IMG/VR virus record: IMGVR_UViG_3300020469_000021
Location: 1-64,000 of that record
Source: a virus
Reading direction: 5' to 3' (one strand)
DNA: 64,000 bases
The notes beneath the pieces are model-generated. The model saw only the letters and a list, made by a program, of their open reading frames with translations. It made no database searches and was not told the DNA's origin. Made by a program: the position numbers and the translations under genes. This document shows positions 27,955-36,557 of the stretch, piece by piece (within the stretch, counting starts at the first letter, position 1; every line of letters begins with the position of its first letter).

Positions 27955-28794
27955 ATGAAAAATAAAAAACAAAAATGGTGGAAAAATAAATTCTCATCCA
28001 CAATAGTATTAAAAACTTTCTTATTTAAGGTGGAGCTCTCTGGCAACGCCGATGGCGGCATATTAATATTCAAATCACTTCTATCTAAAACACCAAGCGC
28101 TTTCCTTAAATTAGACCCTGAAATAATAATGAAATTCGCAAATGATGTCTGCATGAAAATGCATAGATTTGGCGAAATTGAAAGTATACCCGAAGATAAA
28201 ATTATAAACTTACATGAAAATTACTTCTGCGCAGAGACGATAAGAGACATTTATTCAAATATCATCTCAGACCTACAGGCTGACAACAGCGGACACAGAA
28301 CAAATAATATTGTTTCATTCGGTCACGTGTTGAAAAATAAGCCTGAAAGAATAAAATACATTGAAATGTGTGAAAACTCTGCTTTTTTAGACTATATACC
28401 AACTAAAAAATTTAATACATATTCTAAAGATACTGCGGAATTCAAAAGCGTATTAGATCTAAAAAAGAGTCATAAATATTTCATTGACCTAGCAGGCCAT
28501 ACCTACAGTACTAAATCATATCTATTTCTTGCGTCTAAAAGAGTTTACTTTTCTTCCGAGCATCCTGAGGTTTTTGAATGGGAAAAAAACCACCTAAAGC
28601 CTTGGGAAAATTACGTTCCAGTTAAAAGCGATCTTTCAGATCTTATGGATAATTATCAAATCATAGAGTCAGATCCAAAACTATATGAAAAAATTATTCA
28701 AAACAATATTAATTTATTACAAAACCAAATCTCTCCAGAATTAATGCTAGATCAAGTAATAAAAAAAATTGCATCTCATGTAAAATTTGCGTGA
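27955..28794 (+). CDS. GT90/CAP10-like glycosyltransferase
   Basis: KYFIDLAGHTYS, LKPWENYVPVKSDLSDL. Confidence 0.75.
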   Translation: MKNKKQKWWKNKFSSTIVLKTFLFKVELSGNADGGILIFKSLLSKTPSAFLKLDPEIIMKFANDVCMKMHRFGEIESIPEDKIINLHENYFCAETIRDIYSNIISDLQADNSGHRTNNIVSFGHVLKNKPERIKYIEMCENSAFLDYIPTKKFNTYSKDTAEFKSVLDLKKSHKYFIDLAGHTYSTKSYLFLASKRVYFSSEHPEVFEWEKNHLKPWENYVPVKSDLSDLMDNYQIIESDPKLYEKIIQNNINLLQNQISPELMLDQVIKKIASHVKFA

Positions 28795-30305
28795 ATATTT
28801 CTCTCTATACGCTGCTAATCCCAAGAATGGAGCTTCCATTCATCGAAGAATGGATTGAGCATCACCTAAGTCTTGGGGTGGATAAAATCTATATCTATAA
28901 TAACGGCGACGCCCCCTCTGATAGCGATGAATATCTACAGGCTGGAGCTAGAGAATTATCAAGGCAAGAAAAAAATATTAAGTGGGCAAAAAAACCAGAC
29001 GCAGAATATTGTTTAGAACTTACTTCTGAAGAAGCGCTAAAACAACTTAATAAAATACTCGAAAAGTACAAAGGCAAAGTTTTTTTAAAATCTTGGATAT
29101 ATGGCAAAGATCATTCTACTGCATATCCAGAATCACAAATTACTGGTTACAAAAATTGCGCGGAAAATAACTATTCGGATTGGTGGCTATTCATGGATGT
29201 AGATGAATTTTTGTTTTTAAATAAACATAAGAATATAAAAAGTTTTTTATCCGATCAGCCAGATTCTAACCACAGCTTAAGATTAGAATTTCCTCAGAGA
29301 GTCTTCAATAAAAGAGTTAAAGAAAAATCGGTTAGAAAAATATTCGACTGGGGCTACGATCATTTGACTCAATTCAAATCTATGATTAAAGGCATCAAAT
29401 TTAGAGATGGCAATGACATTTGCGATGTACACAGTATAGGAGGCGAATGCGTAGAGAGCATTGCGGTACCTTTTGAAGTTGCAAGGTACCACCATTATAG
29501 AGGAGATCCTAGCAAAATGGGCGGTCCAGCGCACAGGCGCATGGGAAAAGTTAGTTTTAACAAATTTGATATTTCAATGTCCAAATACTTCCAAAAAACT
29601 GGCATAATAACCCCCATCATTGGAGATGCCTACGACAGTCAAGTTAGGCTTGGCATGATATCTAAAAACATTTATTGCAGAAGAAATAAATACGAATTGA
29701 TCATCCCCAAAAAAAAAGAATACGAAAAAATTCAAGACCCAAATAAGCGCCCCGGCTGGGTTAAAGTAGATTGCTTGATAGAAAACTACTATAAATACAA
29801 TCTTCTTTTTCTGAGCGACGCAGATGTTTGTATTATGAATTTTGACTTTAACCTTGAAAATTTAGCGAAAGAATTTACAGAAGAAAAACTTATGTTAATC
29901 ACAAAAGATCGCAACGGAATAAACAGTGGCAATGTTTTAATTAAAGGAGGGAGTCAAATAATGTACTACTATCTAAACAGGTGGCGAAATCTACTTGGAG
30001 GTCAATATAAATATGTAGGATATCAAGACCAACCCGCTTTATCTTATATGATTCATGAGACTGATTTTAAAAAACATGTCAAGATAGTCGACCAGTCTCT
30101 AATCAACAGTTACCCTAAAAATATAGCCCACAAAGGAGACAAAGCTTACAAAGATGGGGATTTCTTAATTCATTACGCTGGATACAATACTAGCCCTCAA
30201 GAAGAGGAGCTTAATTTATCAAAAGCTATGGAAAAAGATTTCCATAAGTCCATGGGCATTAACAATGTAAGCTGTAAAGAGATCATAGAATCCAAAAATT
30301 ACTAG
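28791..30305 (+). CDS. Two-domain glycosyltransferase (GT92/GT2-like + GT34-like)
   Basis: EWIEHHLSLGVDKIYIYNN, MDVDEF; WVKV, SDADVCIMN, INSG, DQPAL, GDFLIHYAG. Confidence 0.8.
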   Translation: MNISLYTLLIPRMELPFIEEWIEHHLSLGVDKIYIYNNGDAPSDSDEYLQAGARELSRQEKNIKWAKKPDAEYCLELTSEEALKQLNKILEKYKGKVFLKSWIYGKDHSTAYPESQITGYKNCAENNYSDWWLFMDVDEFLFLNKHKNIKSFLSDQPDSNHSLRLEFPQRVFNKRVKEKSVRKIFDWGYDHLTQFKSMIKGIKFRDGNDICDVHSIGGECVESIAVPFEVARYHHYRGDPSKMGGPAHRRMGKVSFNKFDISMSKYFQKTGIITPIIGDAYDSQVRLGMISKNIYCRRNKYELIIPKKKEYEKIQDPNKRPGWVKVDCLIENYYKYNLLFLSDADVCIMNFDFNLENLAKEFTEEKLMLITKDRNGINSGNVLIKGGSQIMYYYLNRWRNLLGGQYKYVGYQDQPALSYMIHETDFKKHVKIVDQSLINSYPKNIAHKGDKAYKDGDFLIHYAGYNTSPQEEELNLSKAMEKDFHKSMGINNVSCKEIIESKNY

Positions 30306-30629: not shown

Positions 30630-31838
30630 ATGAAAAAGAAAACTTCCCTCCCAGACTTTAAAGTCGAAGAGGTCTTCACTTCGCTTTCTCAATCTCTTGA
30701 CTGGAGTTTGAAATATCAGAATATTCCAGACACTTGGAAAGTAACTCAAGGAGAAGGAGTAACTATTGTCGTAATAGATACAGGCATGCCTGATCACGAA
30801 GACATAGGGGACAATGCAATAGAAGGCGAAAATTTTATACAAGAAGAAGATATCTTTGATTATAACGGACACCAGACTCATTGCGTAGGAATAATCTGCG
30901 CCAAGAATAATAAAAAGGGTTATGTAGGTGTAGCGCCCAAAGCTAAATGCATATGCATAAAAGCTTTAAGCAAAAATGGTTCAGGCAGCTACCAAGGTTT
31001 AGTCAATGCGCTTGAGGCCGCAAAACAACTTAAGCCAGATATTATATCTATGTCTCTTGGTGGCTCAGCTCCAGCGCCTAGAATGGAAAAAATTATAAAA
31101 CAATTAACCGATGATATGCACATTCCTGTCGTTTGCGCTGCGGGTAATTCCGGGTTCGGTGGAGTAAATTATCCAGCTGCTTTTGAATCTACTATAGCTG
31201 TCGCAGCCTATGACAAATACGGAAGAGTATCTTCTTTTTCTTCTCGCGGTCCAGAAGTAGACTGGGCGGCGCCCGGCTCTAATATATCTAGCACTTTTTT
31301 AAATAATTCCTATGCATCGCTTAGTGGAACCTCAATGGCTTGTCCTTTTATCGCTGGAGTTATTGCCTTAATGATTTCGAAACATAGAAAACAAGAAAAA
31401 GAAACAGGTAAAAATGATTGTAAAACAGTAGCTCAAGTTAAAGAGCATTTGTTAAAATACACCAATGATAAAGGCACTATAGGCAGAGATAATGACTGGG
31501 GCTACGGAGTGATAGATGTTAAAAAAATGATCACAGAAGGAGAGCCCGAGCCAAAGCCCGAGCCAAAGCCCGAGCCAAAGCCCGAGCCAAAGCCCGAGCC
31601 AAAGCCCGAGCCAAAGCCCGAGCCAAAGCCAAAACCTTTACCTGTAAAACCTCCTCCTTCTCCACAAAAACCTTCCTTTTGGAAAAAAAATATAGCATGG
31701 GTGGTTGTAGGTATTTTTGCACTTGCTTTTATCGGTGGGATAATATATAGCTTAGTATCTGATGTTTCAGCTAAAGAATCAGATCTTAATAAAAAAATTA
31801 TAAACGATCTCCCCTTGATGGAGATTCCGAAAAAGTAA
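30630..31838 (+). CDS. S8 subtilase with PEPK linker and C-terminal TM anchor
   Basis: IDTG, GHQTHC.G, AAGN, SGTSMA. Confidence 0.93.
   Translation: MKKKTSLPDFKVEEVFTSLSQSLDWSLKYQNIPDTWKVTQGEGVTIVVIDTGMPDHEDIGDNAIEGENFIQEEDIFDYNGHQTHCVGIICAKNNKKGYVGVAPKAKCICIKALSKNGSGSYQGLVNALEAAKQLKPDIISMSLGGSAPAPRMEKIIKQLTDDMHIPVVCAAGNSGFGGVNYPAAFESTIAVAAYDKYGRVSSFSSRGPEVDWAAPGSNISSTFLNNSYASLSGTSMACPFIAGVIALMISKHRKQEKETGKNDCKTVAQVKEHLLKYTNDKGTIGRDNDWGYGVIDVKKMITEGEPEPKPEPKPEPKPEPKPEPKPEPKPEPKPKPLPVKPPPSPQKPSFWKKNIAWVVVGIFALAFIGGIIYSLVSDVSAKESDLNKKIINDLPLMEIPKK
31545..31628 (+). repeat. Perfect 12-bp tandem repeat CCCGAGCCAAAG x7
   Basis: Read directly; encodes PEPK. Confidence 0.97.
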
Positions 31839-32029: not shown

Positions 32030-32048
32030 TACTTGTGTAATTATATTT

Positions 32049-32453
32049 GTGAGTGATAAAAAATTAAAACACAAACATTTATTAGTGAACGCTACTTTTC
32101 AAAACACGCCTTTTGTCTGTGTCGATTTTACTGAATCTTGGATCAAAATGCTGGTTAAAAAGATAGGCATGGAAATACTTTATGCGCCAAAAGCGGTAAT
32201 CTGCGATAAAGAATACAACGAAGGCATAAGTGCATTTTGCCTTATTACAACTAGTCATATAAGTTTACATTCTTGGGAAAAATCTAATCCAAATTTAGTC
32301 CAACTTGATGTTTATAGTTGTAAAAATTTCGATCAAAGCGTCATTTTAAATGAATTGAATAAATTTAATCCTTTATTTTTGGGTTGTAAATTTCTTGACA
32401 GAGAAATAGAAAATACAAAAGGCTGGAGAATGTTTGGCGAAGATTTGGCATGA
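32049..32453 (+). CDS. Second SpeD-family pyruvoyl decarboxylase (TSH variant)
   Basis: HKHLL, GIS..ITTSHISLHSW, QLDVYSCK. Confidence 0.8.
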   Translation: MSDKKLKHKHLLVNATFQNTPFVCVDFTESWIKMLVKKIGMEILYAPKAVICDKEYNEGISAFCLITTSHISLHSWEKSNPNLVQLDVYSCKNFDQSVILNELNKFNPLFLGCKFLDREIENTKGWRMFGEDLA

Positions 32454-33232
32454 GAATATATTTCAGACATTATTCTGGGGCAATCATGGAATACGATTAT
32501 CTTTTTTTTGACTGCATGGCTCGCGTTCCTGCGGAAGATGAGGATAAAGCATTAGTTGAAGGCTGGTTACCAGATGACTATTTTAACCCTAAAAATGATG
32601 AAAAATCCCATTGGTATCAAGCTAGACAAACAAGAATATGCTTAAGTAAATTTCTAGATAGCAAAAGCAATAAAAAGACAAGAAAAAAATGCAAAAACAT
32701 ATCAACTAAAGTCATTAGGGCGCAAGATGTGAATATGGATATCTTGAATTCTATTTTTGAGAAATATATAAAATATAGAAATTTTAAACCTTGGAAGCTT
32801 GAACCCCTAATTGAGCTAGAAGTAGATCGTAAATTTTTTATAATATACTACGCTAACTCATCGGAAGGTGGTCTGCATAACCCAATAGCATTTACATATA
32901 TGAGAGACGTAGGAAGTAATAGCGTATTTTCCACACAATTTGCTTGGGATTACGCAAACCCCAAATTATACCTTGGCAAATATGCGAACCTAGCAGAAAT
33001 AGACTACTGCATTAAAAACAATAAAGAATACATGTATGTAGGCGCAGGATACGAAAATTGTTGTGCATATAAAGCAGATTACGCGGGCTTTGAGTTCTGG
33101 ACAGGAGAAAAGTGGTCAGATGATTCGGATCACTACCGCTGGCTATGCGAACGCGACTCGAAGGTCGAAAAAACTAAAGATTTAGATAAAATAAAGAAGT
33201 ACGATGATAAAAATTTTTTTATAAATGATTGA
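32450..33232 (+). CDS. ATE1/Bpt-like aminoacyl-tRNA-protein transferase
   Basis: LVEGW, RICLSKF..SKSNKK, LGKYANLAEIDYC..KEYMYVG..YK. Confidence 0.65.
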   Translation: MRIYFRHYSGAIMEYDYLFFDCMARVPAEDEDKALVEGWLPDDYFNPKNDEKSHWYQARQTRICLSKFLDSKSNKKTRKKCKNISTKVIRAQDVNMDILNSIFEKYIKYRNFKPWKLEPLIELEVDRKFFIIYYANSSEGGLHNPIAFTYMRDVGSNSVFSTQFAWDYANPKLYLGKYANLAEIDYCIKNNKEYMYVGAGYENCCAYKADYAGFEFWTGEKWSDDSDHYRWLCERDSKVEKTKDLDKIKKYDDKNFFIND

Positions 33233-33677
33233 GGATTACATAGAATATGTTTCACTAAAGAGAAAAGAGCTTGGCGGCCATGCAATTTGCCCTTTTGCAA
33301 AACCTTTTCTTGATAAAATTCAAATAATAGAATCGGCTGACATTTGGCAAGATGCGGTAAAGTGCATGAGCAATGAAGAACATCCAATGCTTTATTTATT
33401 GTATGCAGATAAAGATAAATATGATACAGATTGGCTAGATTGGTTTTGTTCCATTCATGAGAAATATTCTAGGAATAGAGATCTTTGGTTAATTTGGGAT
33501 CACCCCGACCAAATTAATAAAATTAATGGTATAAAAACCAGCAACAATGAATATGCAATTCTTTTCATACAACCTCTGTCGGAATTGAACAAATACGCAG
33601 ATCGATTAAGCAAGACAAATTACTATAGTTTTTGGGATAAAGACTATTACTTAAAAATTGTTAAAAATAGAAATTAA
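33225..33677 (+). CDS. DUF1415-like protein
   Basis: ICPFA, DHPD motifs. Confidence 0.5.
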   Translation: MIEDYIEYVSLKRKELGGHAICPFAKPFLDKIQIIESADIWQDAVKCMSNEEHPMLYLLYADKDKYDTDWLDWFCSIHEKYSRNRDLWLIWDHPDQINKINGIKTSNNEYAILFIQPLSELNKYADRLSKTNYYSFWDKDYYLKIVKNRN

Positions 33678-33717
33678 ATACTTTAATTTTTTATAAGTTT
33701 GTGTATAATAAATTGAT

Positions 33718-34386
33718 ATGAAAGAACTAGACTTTAGTCAAGAAATTAGGGCTCAGCTCAGAGATGCTGAAGGCACTGAAGAAGAATTAACGCAAGAAGC
33801 TTGGGCTGCCGAAGAAAATAAAGGCAAAAAACTTAACAAACCTTTTAGAACTCCCAAAGGCCCAAAGAAATTTTCTGTATATGTCAAAAATGAAAAAGGC
33901 AACGTAGTTAAAGTTAATTTTGGCGATCCAAACATGGAGATAAAACGTGATAGCCCTGAGCGCAGAAAAAGCTTCCGAGCTAGGCATAATTGTGACAATC
34001 CCGGCCCCAAAACTAAAGCTCGTTATTGGAGCTGTAAAATGTGGAGCAAAAATAGTGTAAAGAAAGTAACAAAAGGAGAAGAAGATCACGAAGATGAAAT
34101 GGTTGAATTTCTTGATGAGTCAGATGCTAAAGGCAAAGGCTTGTGGCATAACATTCGAGAAAAAAAGAAAAGGGAAGGCAAGAATTACAGACCTGCAAAA
34201 CCCGGAGACAAAGATTATCCAGATCCCAAATCTTTAAAAAAAGCTCAAGAATCCTCAAAGAAAAAGAAAAAGAAAGAGAAGTCTAAGGCTGAACACGAGG
34301 GAGGTTACCCACCTAATTGCAAACCGGGTTATATGGAAAAAGATGGGCAGTGCGTCCCTAAACCTTCTGCAGATAGCAAAAAGTAA
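33718..34386 (+). CDS. Modular basic phage protein (FRARHxC..ARYWSC domain plus GLWxNI module)
   Basis: VKVNFGD..ERRKSFRARHNCD..ARYWSCKMW; GTGTA upstream. Confidence 0.7.
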   Translation: MKELDFSQEIRAQLRDAEGTEEELTQEAWAAEENKGKKLNKPFRTPKGPKKFSVYVKNEKGNVVKVNFGDPNMEIKRDSPERRKSFRARHNCDNPGPKTKARYWSCKMWSKNSVKKVTKGEEDHEDEMVEFLDESDAKGKGLWHNIREKKKREGKNYRPAKPGDKDYPDPKSLKKAQESSKKKKKKEKSKAEHEGGYPPNCKPGYMEKDGQCVPKPSADSKK

Positions 34387-35636: not shown

Positions 35637-36557
35637 ATGAAGTTTTTTATTTACAAGGAAAATTTAAATTTCTGCGCAGAAAATGCCGCCCAAAAATATG
35701 CAAAAGAGATTATTGAAGCTTTAAAAAACACGACCCACGAAGAAACTTTAGACCCACTAGAAGCAAAAGTTTTTTTTACAAATATTTCTAACGAAAGAAA
35801 TTATGAAAAATTTACCTCTTCAGGTTTTGGAGAATTAAAGCCGATCAATTATTTAAAAATTTGCCAAAAAGTTGTTTCATCAAAATATTTAGAACTTGGC
35901 CCGCATTTCACTTTTTTTCATCGGCTAGATAACAAAGATTATTACCCCGTATTAAACCACAAAAATGTAGTCAATATCCCTTATCATAATCCAAATTTTC
36001 AGCCTCTTAAGGATTTTATCATATCTCCCCCTGCGATAAAAAAAGTTTCTTTTAATGATAGTCTACTAAAGCGTTTTCTGCTTTCTTTTAAAGGCCACTG
36101 GGGAATAAGAAGTATTAAAGGGCGAGATCACAGGTGGGGCTGTCTAGATAAAATCTCTAAGTTAAATAACGATCACATTATAATTATAGATAGCAAAGAT
36201 GACCGACATAATTATATTGATTTAATGAGTAATTCTCTCTTTTCTTTAATTACCGAGGGAGATGAACCTTGGTCCTACAGATTAAGCGAAGCTATATGTG
36301 CTGGATCAATTCCTGTGTTATTGGAAAAAGATTGGCACAACCTTCCATATAGTAACATCATAAATTATGATAATTTTATTATAAAAATAAATTATTTAAA
36401 TCCAGAAATGGTATACAGTGCAATTATGAACTGTTCTCTGGAAGAGATATCTACAAAAATTAAATACATGAAATCGATTAGACATTTATTTTCGTCAAGA
36501 AGAGATCAAATGCAATTGCTCTTAGATTTTTATGAAAAATATCAAGATAATGCTTGA
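35637..36557 (+). CDS. Exostosin (GT47)-like glycosyltransferase
   Basis: LLSFKG, YIDLMSNSLFSL..GD..WSYRLSEAICAGSIPV. Confidence 0.8.
   Translation: MKFFIYKENLNFCAENAAQKYAKEIIEALKNTTHEETLDPLEAKVFFTNISNERNYEKFTSSGFGELKPINYLKICQKVVSSKYLELGPHFTFFHRLDNKDYYPVLNHKNVVNIPYHNPNFQPLKDFIISPPAIKKVSFNDSLLKRFLLSFKGHWGIRSIKGRDHRWGCLDKISKLNNDHIIIIDSKDDRHNYIDLMSNSLFSLITEGDEPWSYRLSEAICAGSIPVLLEKDWHNLPYSNIINYDNFIIKINYLNPEMVYSAIMNCSLEEISTKIKYMKSIRHLFSSRRDQMQLLLDFYEKYQDNA

What the first reader, a model, noticed from the sequence alone, without database searches (positions are those of the whole stretch)
32035..33677. SpeD-variant / ATE-Bpt-like transferase / DUF1415-like operon
Seen: three overlapping genes behind a GTGTA motif. 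The middle protein has the C-terminal ATE/Bpt signature but lacks the N-terminal Cys ligands typical of these enzymes. Established: ATE1/Bpt move amino acids from aminoacyl-tRNA onto protein N-termini (N-degron pathway), and some marine phage SpeD homologs are arginine or ornithine decarboxylases. Inference: either a phage N-degron writer that, together with the unusual tmRNA, reprograms host proteolysis, or an unknown tRNA-dependent amine/peptide modification pathway.
Basis: partly seen in the sequence, partly recalled or inferred. Interest (0 to 1): 0.7.

Follow-up and report, generated by a model that had tools for sequence, protein, structure and literature searches.

The report
Phage aminoacyl-tRNA transferase and haem-like partner
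An uncultured marine phage carries a tightly packed three-gene unit (an amino-acid decarboxylase, a stripped-down relative of the enzymes that move an amino acid from charged tRNA onto an amine, and a small probable haem enzyme) that recurs across ocean phages and looks more like a pathway building a modified arginine/polyamine-type compound than a tagger of proteins for destruction.

Summary
Three overlapping + strand genes lie at 32049-33677, between two GTGTA(A/T)A promoter-like motifs.

- **Gene 1** is a SpeD-type pyruvoyl decarboxylase. It is closest to the pelagiphage clade whose HTVC201P member is an experimentally shown arginine decarboxylase.
- **Gene 2** has the whole ATE1/Bpt fold (Z 17.1 to human ATE1 over residues 1-260). 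It keeps the catalytic Lys/Tyr/Trp and the Glu of the arginine pocket. It lacks the four metal-binding Cys and the Arg that reads acidic N-termini.
- **Gene 3** is a remote DUF1415 relative with invariant Cys22 and Asp92-His93. Its best structural match is AglA, a Cys-ligated haem guanidine N-hydroxylase. Profile alignment puts Cys22 on AglA's haem cysteine.

The conserved core is genes 2+3. They are adjacent in 29 of 31 viral loci, in three different arrangements. SpeD joins them in only two lineages.

In argolaphos biosynthesis an Arg-tRNA-dependent ligase (AglC) feeds AglA. My best reading is therefore a tRNA-dependent amine-acylation plus oxidation pathway, not a classical N-degron writer. 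No function has been tested.

Follow-up agents of this scan reached the same reading on other genomes.

The parts
32035..32045 (+). GTGTAATTATA promoter-like motif, 10 nt upstream of the GTG start of gene 1
   Evidence: Read directly from the sequence. The same GTGTA(T/A)A motif lies 8-17 nt before other starts in the window. The overall GTGTA count is not above chance.
32049..32453 (+). SpeD-type pyruvoyl-dependent decarboxylase (134 aa), probably an arginine decarboxylase
   Evidence: Pfam AdoMet_dc E 1e-9 and phrog_3125 E 2.6e-13. The Ser69-His70 processing site, His74 and Cys91 are kept. Its only matches among deposited phages are 12 records (11 Pelagibacter phages and one uncultured phage), including HTVC201P at 40% identity. 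The HTVC201P enzyme was shown to be an ADC (PMC9992855). It aligns with the true AdoMetDC of S-PM2 at 31% identity over only 61 aa.
32450..33232 (+). ATE1/Bpt-fold aminoacyl-tRNA transferase (260 aa) that lacks the metal-binding Cys and the Arg for acidic N-termini
   Evidence: ATE_C at 27.8 bits; 77 of 89 family members hit ATE_C. The AF2 model has pLDDT 94.6. Foldseek gives human ATE1 at E 2.4e-9 and VIA gives Z 17.1 with 224 residues aligned over 1-260. K208, Y207, W166 and E183 are conserved.
33225..33677 (+). P150: a small alpha/beta protein of the DUF1415 superfamily (150 aa) with invariant Cys22-Pro-x-Ala and Asp92-His93-Pro; a candidate thiolate-haem enzyme
   Evidence: phrog_10325 E 3e-18. 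The AF2 model has pLDDT 90.6. The top structural match among 48,161 chains is AglA (9ub3) at Z 6.8 with 136 residues aligned. hhalign gives E 1.6e-5 to DUF1415 and E 3.5e-4 to YqcI/YcgG with Cys on Cys.
33701..33709 (+). Next GTGTATAAT motif, which starts the following transcription unit (gene at 33718)
   Evidence: Read directly from the sequence.

Best explanation
The window belongs to an uncultured marine T4-like myovirus (IMG/VR record of 104,956 bp). The three genes form one translationally coupled unit.

Shown:
- Gene 1 is an intact SpeD-type pyruvoyl decarboxylase of the pelagiphage arginine-decarboxylase clade.
- Gene 2 has the complete ATE1/Bpt two-domain fold and keeps the catalytic-site residues of aminoacyl-tRNA transferases.
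- Gene 3 belongs to a large phage family (over 1,500 database proteins) that is remotely related to DUF1415.
- Genes 2 and 3 are neighbours in nearly every phage that has gene 2.

Inferred:
- Gene 2 takes a basic amino acid, most likely arginine, from charged tRNA. The Glu of the Ate1 arginine pocket is kept in 66 of 89 family members.
- It puts that amino acid on an amine that is not an acidic protein N-terminus.
- Gene 3 is a small Cys-ligated haem oxygenase like AglA and oxidises (N-hydroxylates) either the acceptor or the product.
- In this clade the decarboxylase supplies or raises the amine pool (agmatine or polyamine).

The pair would then work like AglC + AglA of argolaphos biosynthesis, where an Arg-tRNA-dependent ligase makes an arginyl-amine and the haem enzyme N-hydroxylates its guanidine. 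Product and target are unknown.
For: - Fold and sequence of gene 2.
- Active-site mapping of gene 2 onto klAte1 residues taken from PMC9351520 and counted over 89 family members: Lys304 to K208 in 88/89, Tyr303 to Y207 in 78/89, Glu277 to E183 in 66/89, Arg80 to Leu/Ile, Cys95/96 to Trp/Tyr.
- Linkage: P150 lies within 1.1 kb of the ATE-like gene in 29 of 31 viral loci and in 7 of 12 lineages at 60% identity. It does so in three arrangements (ATE then P150, P150 then ATE with overlap, and convergent), which argues for selection rather than inherited order.
- P150: C22, P23, A25, D92, H93, Q116, Y134 and W137 are invariant in 139 members.
- P150 against known structures: the top hit of 48,161 chains is AglA at Z 6.8 over 136 of 150 residues, and the next hit is Z 4.4. 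The order of secondary-structure elements in the model fits the AglA description.
- P150 against YqcI/YcgG by profile: hhalign of P150+DUF1415 gives E 3.5e-4 and places Cys22 on the family Cys. Thirty column-shuffled controls gave no E-value below 0.05. That family Cys is AglA Cys44, the haem ligand.
- Precedent: AMPn-Arg, the substrate of AglA, is made by AglC with ArgRS and tRNA. The cluster holds a YqcI/YcgG gene together with GNAT aminoacyl-tRNA ligases.
- SpeD clade. A SpeD gene also sits next to P150 in the distant lineage L013.
Against: - No biochemistry exists for any of the three proteins.
- The AglA match (Z 6.8) is in the range the tool calls common for models without a clear match. 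hhalign probabilities are low (5.7-37%).
- P150 is 150 aa against 243-274 aa for AglA. It lacks AglA's C-terminal substrate loop, and I could not show equivalents of AglA's haem-propionate-binding Arg/Lys.
- No ferredoxin or reductase partner is in the phage record.
- Co-occurrence is asymmetric. P150 occurs alone in at least 30 deposited phages (S-PM2, Syn1, S-RIM44, HMO-2011, CRP-345), while the ATE-like gene is in none of 50,697 records. P150 therefore does not need the transferase, unlike AglA, which needs AglC's product.
- The two SpeD genes attached to the pair are of different types: ADC-like here and canonical AESH AdoMetDC-like in L013. A specific agmatine acceptor is thus not supported.
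- The mapping of Arg80 and the Cys ligands rests on a weak N-terminal alignment (1.5 bits), backed only by the full-length fold match.
- The full-length resemblance to ATE1, which is a protein-modifying enzyme, rather than to small-molecule ligases favours a protein or peptide acceptor.
Confidence: 0.4

Rival explanations
1. Classical N-degron writer. Gene 2 is a phage Bpt/ATE that adds a destabilising residue to N-terminal Asp/Glu (or oxidised Cys) of host or phage proteins so that ClpS-ClpAP degrades them. P150 prepares the N-termini, as an oxidase or amidase does in the eukaryotic Arg/N-degron pathway.
For: The full-length fold match is to ATE1 (Z 17.1). ATE_C scores over its cut-off. The catalytic Lys/Tyr/Trp are conserved. 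In eukaryotes an oxygenase or amidase acting before ATE1 is established (PMC9351520), which would explain an obligatory partner.
Against: The equivalent of Arg80, which is essential for acidic N-terminus recognition and conserved in Ate1 and Bpt, is Leu/Ile in the family. The C4 metal site is absent. Short forms lack the N-terminal domain entirely. No ClpS is in the phage record. P150 is not a cupin thiol dioxygenase and shows no similarity to Nt-amidases in the fold searches.
Confidence: 0.13
2. Protein modification with a non-canonical acceptor. The pair aminoacylates and/or hydroxylates a particular phage or host protein, at a non-acidic N-terminus or a Lys side chain. The target could be a virion or baseplate protein.
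For: Gene 2 resembles the protein-modifying ATE1 over its whole length. In most distant phages the pair sits among structural genes: baseplate hub, tail tube, portal, virion structural protein. The P150 homologue of S-PM2 lies just before gp25. The N-terminal part of gene 2 weakly hits a PHROG annotated as tail fibre assembly (E 2.4e-4).
Against: The context is not constant. In this window the neighbours are glycosyltransferases, a subtilase and a HAD phosphatase. No candidate substrate gene travels with the pair; the flanking clusters c2, c3 and c9 each occur in only some lineages. Adjacency of SpeD in two lineages is not explained.
Confidence: 0.2
3. P150 is not a haem enzyme. Its invariant Cys22, Asp92-His93 and Gln116 form a thiol catalytic centre (amidase, transferase or thioester carrier) or a metal site, or P150 is a non-catalytic subunit that stands in for the ATE N-terminal domain in the short forms.
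For: Cys, Asp-His and Gln are invariant in 139 members, as in Cys-His-Asp enzymes. The P150 gene overlaps the short transferase gene in most loci, which suggests a complex. The haem inference rests on weak scores.
Against: The best and only near-full-length structural match is the haem enzyme AglA. The profile alignment puts Cys22 exactly on the haem-ligand Cys, with an E-value beyond all shuffles. No papain-like or transglutaminase-like fold appears in the searches.
Confidence: 0.2
4. The genes are neighbours without working together: independent auxiliary genes that happen to sit in a variable region.
For: P150 occurs without the transferase in many cultured phages. SpeD is a common marine phage gene (PMC9992855). 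Some MAG contigs have the ATE-like gene without P150.
Against: Genes 2 and 3 are adjacent in 29 of 31 viral loci, across 25-36% protein identity, with three different gene orders and frequent start/stop overlap.
Confidence: 0.05

Closest known systems
Eukaryotic ATE1 (arginyl-tRNA-protein transferase) and bacterial Bpt (Asp/Glu leucyltransferase)
   Same: Same two-domain fold over the whole protein: Z 17.1 to human ATE1 and 15.8 to K. lactis Ate1. Pfam ATE_C matches. Equivalents of Lys304, Tyr303 and Trp260 are conserved, and so is the Glu277 of the arginine pocket. The size is that of Bpt, about 250 aa (the Bpt size is from my own knowledge).
   Different: There is no C4 Zn/Fe-S site: all four Cys are absent. 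There is no Pfam ATE_N hit. The Arg80 that reads acidic N-termini is replaced by Leu/Ile. A widespread short form has the GNAT core only. It is nearly always next to a P150 gene. It was found only in phage or phage-like contigs.
AglC + AglA of argolaphos biosynthesis (Streptomyces monomycini)
   Same: A GNAT-fold aminoacyl-tRNA-dependent ligase is paired with a small Cys-ligated haem enzyme. AglA is the top structural match of P150, and its haem Cys aligns with Cys22. The arginine theme is shared: AglC uses Arg-tRNA, and gene 2 keeps the Ate1 Arg-pocket Glu.
   Different: By the cluster table, AglC is most likely one of the two FemAB-like GNATs (AlpF, pfam13480, or AlpO, COG3146), not an ATE/Bpt protein. 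I did not compare its sequence. P150 is about 100 residues shorter than AglA and does not hit Pfam YqcI_YcgG. There are no phosphonate genes here. P150 often occurs without a transferase.
DUF1415 (PF07209) and DUF6875 (PF21780), bacterial families of unknown function
   Same: They share the N-terminal helix, the CPFA motif and a His-Pro motif. hhalign gives E 1.6e-5 over 123 columns. Twelve of 20 P150 members give weak DUF6875 hits, and CRP-345 gp78 hits DUF1415 at 5.7e-4.
   Different: The window protein itself gives no Pfam hit. It is 150 aa against about 190. The bacterial DUF1415 genes examined have unrelated, variable neighbours and no transferase.
Pelagiphage HTVC201P SpeD homologue (pyruvoyl-dependent arginine decarboxylase)
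   Same: 40% identity. It shares the HKHLL N-terminus, the T-S-H processing site and the PxxVQLDVY insertion.
   Different: The window protein has a C-terminal extension (TKGWRMFGEDLA). Its substrate is untested. In HTVC201P the gene sits by ribonucleotide reductase, not by a transferase.

Membership tests
ATE1/Bpt aminoacyl-tRNA-protein transferases | ATE_C (GNAT) domain recognised by the family profile | tested here: met
   PF04377 at 27.8 bits against a cut-off of 25. 77 of 89 relatives hit it, best E 3.7e-17. The family profile hits ATE1 PDB sequences at 4e-10.
ATE1/Bpt aminoacyl-tRNA-protein transferases | Two-domain fold, including the N-terminal domain | tested here: met
   VIA Z 17.1 (rmsd 4.2, 224 residues aligned, model 1-260) to human ATE1; Z 15.8 to klAte1. 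Foldseek E 2.4e-9.
ATE1/Bpt aminoacyl-tRNA-protein transferases | Conserved active-site Lys304/Tyr303/Trp260 (klAte1 numbering) | tested here: met
   K208 in 88/89, Y207 in 78/89, W166 in 60/89 plus Y in 19.
ATE1/Bpt aminoacyl-tRNA-protein transferases | Four-Cys metal (Zn or Fe-S) site in ATE_N | tested here: not met
   There is no ATE_N Pfam hit. The positions of Cys95/96 are Trp55/Tyr56 (W in 71/89, Y in 53/89). There is no CxxC near the N-terminus.
ATE1/Bpt aminoacyl-tRNA-protein transferases | Basic residue (klAte1 Arg80) that recognises an acidic N-terminal residue | tested here: not met
   The aligned position is Leu40 (L 51, I 12, A 7 of 89). This part of the alignment is weak and is backed only by the fold match.
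ATE1/Bpt aminoacyl-tRNA-protein transferases | Transfer of an amino acid from aminoacyl-tRNA to a protein N-terminus | not testable with these tools
   Needs an in vitro assay.
Class 1b AdoMetDC/SpeD pyruvoyl enzymes | AdoMet_dc domain with the self-processing Ser, plus the His and Cys of the active site | tested here: met
   PF02675 E 1e-9. Ser69-His70, His74 and Cys91 are invariant in the alignment with HTVC201P and S-PM2 enzymes.
Pelagiphage pyruvoyl arginine decarboxylase clade (HTVC201P type) | Closer to the ADC clade than to true AdoMetDC | tested here: met
   40-46% identity to HTVC201P and HTVC115P against 31% over 61 aa to S-PM2 AdoMetDC. The only matches among deposited phages are 11 Pelagibacter phages and one uncultured phage. 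No tree was built and the substrate is not testable here.
DUF1415 (PF07209) | Match to the family profile | tested here: inconclusive
   The window protein has no Pfam hit even at E 10. Family-to-family hhalign gives E 1.6e-5, probability 79%. This indicates a superfamily relative, not a member.
YqcI/YcgG thiolate-haem N-hydroxylases (PF08892; AglA, DcsA) | Sandwich fold of a four-stranded sheet between helices | tested here: inconclusive
   AglA 9ub3 is the top hit of 48,161 chains: Z 6.8, rmsd 3.6, 136 residues aligned, next hit Z 4.4. By the tool's own calibration, Z below 8 can be a chance similarity.
YqcI/YcgG thiolate-haem N-hydroxylases (PF08892; AglA, DcsA) | Conserved haem-ligand Cys (AglA Cys44) at the equivalent position | tested here: met
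   hhalign puts Cys22 on the family PC motif (E 0.0067 and 3.5e-4; shuffled controls 0.05 or higher). The family Cys is AglA Cys44.
YqcI/YcgG thiolate-haem N-hydroxylases (PF08892; AglA, DcsA) | Family profile match, haem-propionate-binding Arg/Lys, and haem binding itself | tested here: not met
   No PF08892 hit in any of 20 members. Equivalents of Arg166, Lys196 and Arg200 could not be assigned. Haem binding is not testable here.

The most novel reading that the evidence does not exclude
Marine phages carry a previously undescribed two-enzyme system: a metal-free ATE/Bpt-type arginyl-tRNA transferase with a miniature thiolate-haem N-oxygenase. Together they make an N-hydroxyguanidine-bearing aminoacyl-amine (for example a hydroxylated arginyl-polyamine) during infection. 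This would be the first tRNA-dependent secondary-metabolite-like pathway in a phage and the first assigned function for the DUF1415 superfamily.
Probability: 0.2. Interest if true: 0.85.

Novelty: new variant of a known kind. Interest (0 to 1): 0.62.

Why it matters
ATE1 and Bpt are known only as writers of N-degrons on acidic protein N-termini in cells. Here a phage-specific branch has lost the parts that define that job but keeps the catalytic core, and it travels with a partner gene.

If the partner is a thiolate-haem enzyme, three things follow:
- The large, function-less DUF1415/DUF6875 group would be tied to the newly recognised YqcI/YcgG class of non-P450 haem oxygenases.
- Phages would be shown to divert charged tRNA into chemistry other than translation.
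- The family is common in ocean metagenomes (207 clusters at 50% identity for the transferase, over 1,500 proteins for P150), so its product could matter for infected SAR11-type or cyanobacterial cells.

All of this is directly testable with three small soluble proteins.

Tried and rejected
- **Deposited phages:** tblastn of the long and the short transferase against 50,697 phage records found nothing. No cultured model phage with the pair was found.
- The contigs of the 76 close homologues could not be surveyed, and synteny rests on 31 IMG/VR loci and 7 MAG loci.
- **Fused forms:** a search for long or fused forms of P150 found none. This is weak evidence.
- **P150 against PDB:** Foldseek found nothing at E 0.001 or better, and the profile against PDB sequences found nothing meaningful. 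BFVD gave only uncharacterised phage proteins.
- **Bacterial DUF1415 neighbourhoods:** five loci had unrelated neighbours (aquaporin, amino-acid kinase, GntR, GGDEF, GlnRS, LysE, FolD, TrmO) and gave no functional hint.
- **DUF6614:** I tested whether the DUF6614 gene downstream of the short transferase is a split-off ATE_N domain. It is not (hhalign E 0.0038 over 23 columns).
- **Own phage record:** no ClpS, no 2Fe-2S ferredoxin and no tRNA-Arg. It has only a tmRNA and a tRNA-Thr. I saw no link to the tmRNA.
- **L042:** this CPR MAG relative (23% identity) lies between MraY-like and Mur-ligase genes. It looks like a Fem-type cell-wall enzyme, so I treated it as an outgroup.
- **GTGTA:** as a bare pentamer it is not enriched.
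- **Literature:** searches for a phage ATE/Bpt found no paper on it.
Full report
**What is there.** The window is 33% G+C, nearly all genes are on the + strand, and it carries a tmRNA and one tRNA. It belongs to an IMG/VR virus record of 104,956 bp that CheckV rates 79% complete.

ORFs lie at 32049-32453 (134 aa), 32450-33232 (260 aa) and 33225-33677 (150 aa). They overlap by ATGA and by 8 nt.

A GTGTAATTATA motif sits 10 nt before the first start. A GTGTATAAT sits 9 nt before the next gene at 33718. The three genes therefore look like one transcription unit. The bare pentamer is not enriched in the window: 44 copies found, 57 expected. The extended motif does recur 8-17 nt before several starts and before the tmRNA.

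**Gene 1.** It hits Pfam AdoMet_dc at E 1e-9 and phrog_3125. The self-processing Ser69-His70, His74 and Cys91 are all present.
- Among 50,697 deposited phages it matches only 12 records: 11 Pelagibacter phages and one uncultured phage. HTVC201P is among them.
- It is 40-46% identical to the HTVC201P and HTVC115P proteins. It aligns with the proven AdoMetDC of S-PM2 at 31% over only 61 residues.
- The HTVC201P protein was shown to decarboxylate arginine, not SAM (PMC9992855).
- Gene 1 is therefore probably an arginine decarboxylase. This is inferred from similarity and is untested.

**Gene 2, sequence evidence.** Pfam ATE_C scores 27.8 bits (cut-off 25) on residues 147-216 only.
- A full HMMER scan of 1.84 billion representatives gave 207 relatives, mostly 220-270 aa and matching full length.
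- 77 of 89 aligned relatives hit ATE_C and one hits ATE_N.
- The family profile finds ATE1 structures at 4e-10 and the best acyl-CoA GNAT at 2.7e-4.

**Gene 2, fold evidence.** The AlphaFold model has pLDDT 94.6.
- It matches human ATE1 at Foldseek E 2.4e-9 and VIA Z 17.1 with 224 residues aligned over model 1-260. K. lactis Ate1 gives Z 15.8.
- Next come other aminoacyl-tRNA-dependent enzymes, on the core only: aminoacyl-phosphatidylglycerol synthases at about Z 15, FemX at 13, Sba18/Sbb17 at 12.
- Acyl-CoA GNATs score 13 or less.

**Gene 2, active-site mapping.** I mapped residues studied in klAte1 (PMC9351520) through the profile alignment and counted them in 89 relatives.

| klAte1 residue | Role | Window residue | Count in family |
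|---|---|---|---|
| Lys304 | active site | K208 | 88/89 |
| Tyr303 | active site | Y207 | 78/89 |
| Trp260 | active site | W166 | 60/89, plus Y in 19 |
| Glu277 | only charged residue of the Arg pocket (Gln in Bpt) | E183 | 66/89 |
| Cys95/Cys96 | metal site | W55/Y56 | W 71/89, Y 53/89 |
| Arg80 | reads acidic N-termini; conserved in Ate1 and Bpt | L40 | L 51, I 12, A 7 |

There is no CxxC near the N-terminus either.

The N-terminal part of this alignment is weak by sequence (1.5 bits). It leans on the fold match and on motif resemblance: GFRRSG against GWLPDD, and CCRLYTIR against WYQARQTR.

The picture is an active aminoacyl-tRNA transferase, probably with a basic donor. Its acceptor is not an acidic N-terminus.

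**Gene 3 (P150).** It has no Pfam hit and matches phrog_10325 at E 3e-18. The family is large, with 1,540 database proteins at E 1e-3 or better. Eight residues are invariant in 139 members: C22, P23, A25, D92, H93, Q116, Y134 and W137.

Relation to DUF1415 and DUF6875:
- Twelve of 20 members give weak DUF6875 hits, and one cultured-phage homologue hits DUF1415 at 5.7e-4.
- hhalign against eight bacterial DUF1415 proteins gives E 1.6e-5, probability 79%, with CPFA on CPFA.
- 'DUF1415-like' is therefore right at superfamily level.

Relation to AglA and the YqcI/YcgG family:
- The model (pLDDT 90.6) has no Foldseek match in the PDB.
- Aligned against 48,161 representative chains, its top hit is AglA (9ub3): Z 6.8, rmsd 3.6, 136 of 150 residues. 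The next hit is Z 4.4.
- AglA is the first solved YqcI/YcgG enzyme. It has a four-stranded sheet between helices holding a haem whose iron is bound by Cys44, and it N-hydroxylates the guanidine of AMPn-Arg (PMC12866846).
- I fetched eight YqcI/YcgG genes from bacterial genomes. Their invariant Pro-Cys is AglA Cys44.
- hhalign of the P150 family against them gives E 0.0067. The merged P150+DUF1415 profile gives E 3.5e-4 over 72 columns. Both place Cys22 on that Cys.
- Controls: thirty column-shuffled runs gave no E-value below 0.05, a reversed control gave 0.024, and unrelated families gave 0.12-0.22.

Each of these lines is weak and they agree. I put the haem-enzyme reading at about one in three to one in two.

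**Linkage.** A scan of IMG/VR gave 31 loci encoding relatives of gene 2.
- Three loci are close (70-92% identity) and carry SpeD, the transferase and P150.
- The other 28 loci are 25-36% identical. They encode a short transferase of 134-164 aa that covers only the GNAT core.
- Profile searches find P150 within 1.1 kb in 29 of the 31 loci. One exception is cut by the contig end.
- At 60% identity the loci form 12 lineages, and 7 of them have the pair.
- The order differs among lineages: transferase then P150 here; P150 then transferase with overlapping stop and start in most; convergent in four loci.
- Neighbours are otherwise inconsistent. They are baseplate hub, tail tube, portal and DUF6614 in the distant T4-like phages, and glycosyltransferases, a subtilase and a HAD phosphatase here.

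SpeD is attached only in the window's clade and, in a different place and of the canonical AESH type, in L013.

P150 occurs alone in cultured cyanophages (S-PM2 p080, Syn1, S-RIM44), HMO-2011 and Roseobacter phages. The transferase is in no deposited phage. The transferase therefore appears to depend on P150, and P150 does not depend on the transferase.

Seven MAG contigs also carry relatives. Two marine ones have the pair. One CPR contig has a 23%-identical relative between MraY-like and Mur-ligase genes, which looks like a Fem-type enzyme.

**Mechanism.** The closest worked example of a GNAT-fold aminoacyl-tRNA ligase paired with a Cys-haem enzyme is argolaphos biosynthesis. AglC, with ArgRS and tRNA, makes AMPn-Arg, and AglA then hydroxylates it.

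By analogy I propose three steps:
- Gene 2 arginylates an amine.
- P150 oxidises the substrate or the product.
- The decarboxylase feeds the amine pool in this clade.

Points against this reading:
- The scores that tie P150 to AglA are weak.
- P150 is small and lacks AglA's substrate loop.
- No redox partner is in the phage record.
- The direction of dependence is opposite to that of AglA on AglC.
- Two different SpeD types are attached to the pair.
- Gene 2 resembles a protein-modifying enzyme over its full length.

I give the pathway reading 0.4. The rivals are modification of a non-canonical protein acceptor at 0.2, a non-haem role for P150 at 0.2 (this overlaps with the others), a classical N-degron writer at 0.13, and coincidental adjacency at 0.05.

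**Novelty and earlier notes.** I found no paper on phage ATE/Bpt homologues. DUF1415 has essentially no literature. After I had reached this reading, a look-up showed that follow-up agents of this scan came to the same one (AglC/AglA analogy, arginine-type pocket, loss of acidic-end recognition) on related cassettes in other genomes. This is agreement, not independent evidence.

The cassette is a new variant of known enzyme kinds with unknown chemistry. It is common in ocean phages and easy to test.

Noticed in passing
window 11479, 13957, 20131, 30335, 32035, 33701, 59680 (+ strand): An extended motif GTGTA(T/A)A(T/A) lies 8-17 nt upstream of start codons and 31 nt before the tmRNA gene. It looks like a phage promoter that gives near-leaderless transcripts. 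The bare pentamer is not enriched.
   Followed up: partly
window 33718-34386; L009:9235-9510; L033:1596-1826; L034:1133-1369: Residues 17-109 of the 222-aa Lys-rich protein just downstream of P150 (phrog_7595) have homologues within 1-3 kb of the P150 gene in HMO-2011, CRP-345 and one IMG/VR locus. This may be a fourth loosely linked gene or simply a common marine phage gene.
   Followed up: no
L002:7006-7838: In one close relative, a QueF-like gene and a DUF2452 gene are inserted between the transferase and P150.
   Followed up: no
L009-L029, directly downstream of the short transferase: A DUF6614 gene of about 110 aa follows the P150/short-transferase pair in 14 loci. It is not an ATE_N homologue.
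   Followed up: partly
L042:3896-4555: A 23%-identical relative in a Candidatus Magasanikiibacteriota MAG lies between a glycosyltransferase family 4 (MraY-like) gene and a Mur ligase gene. This suggests a Fem-like cell-wall aminoacyl transferase.
   Followed up: no
window 30630-31838: A subtilase (Peptidase_S8, E 1.5e-46) with a long PEPK repeat stalk and a C-terminal hydrophobic segment lies directly upstream of the unit.
   Followed up: no
window 28791-30305 and 35637-36557: Glycosyltransferase families that are mostly eukaryotic (GT34 GMA12/MNN10, GT92, exostosin GT47) flank the region.
   Followed up: no
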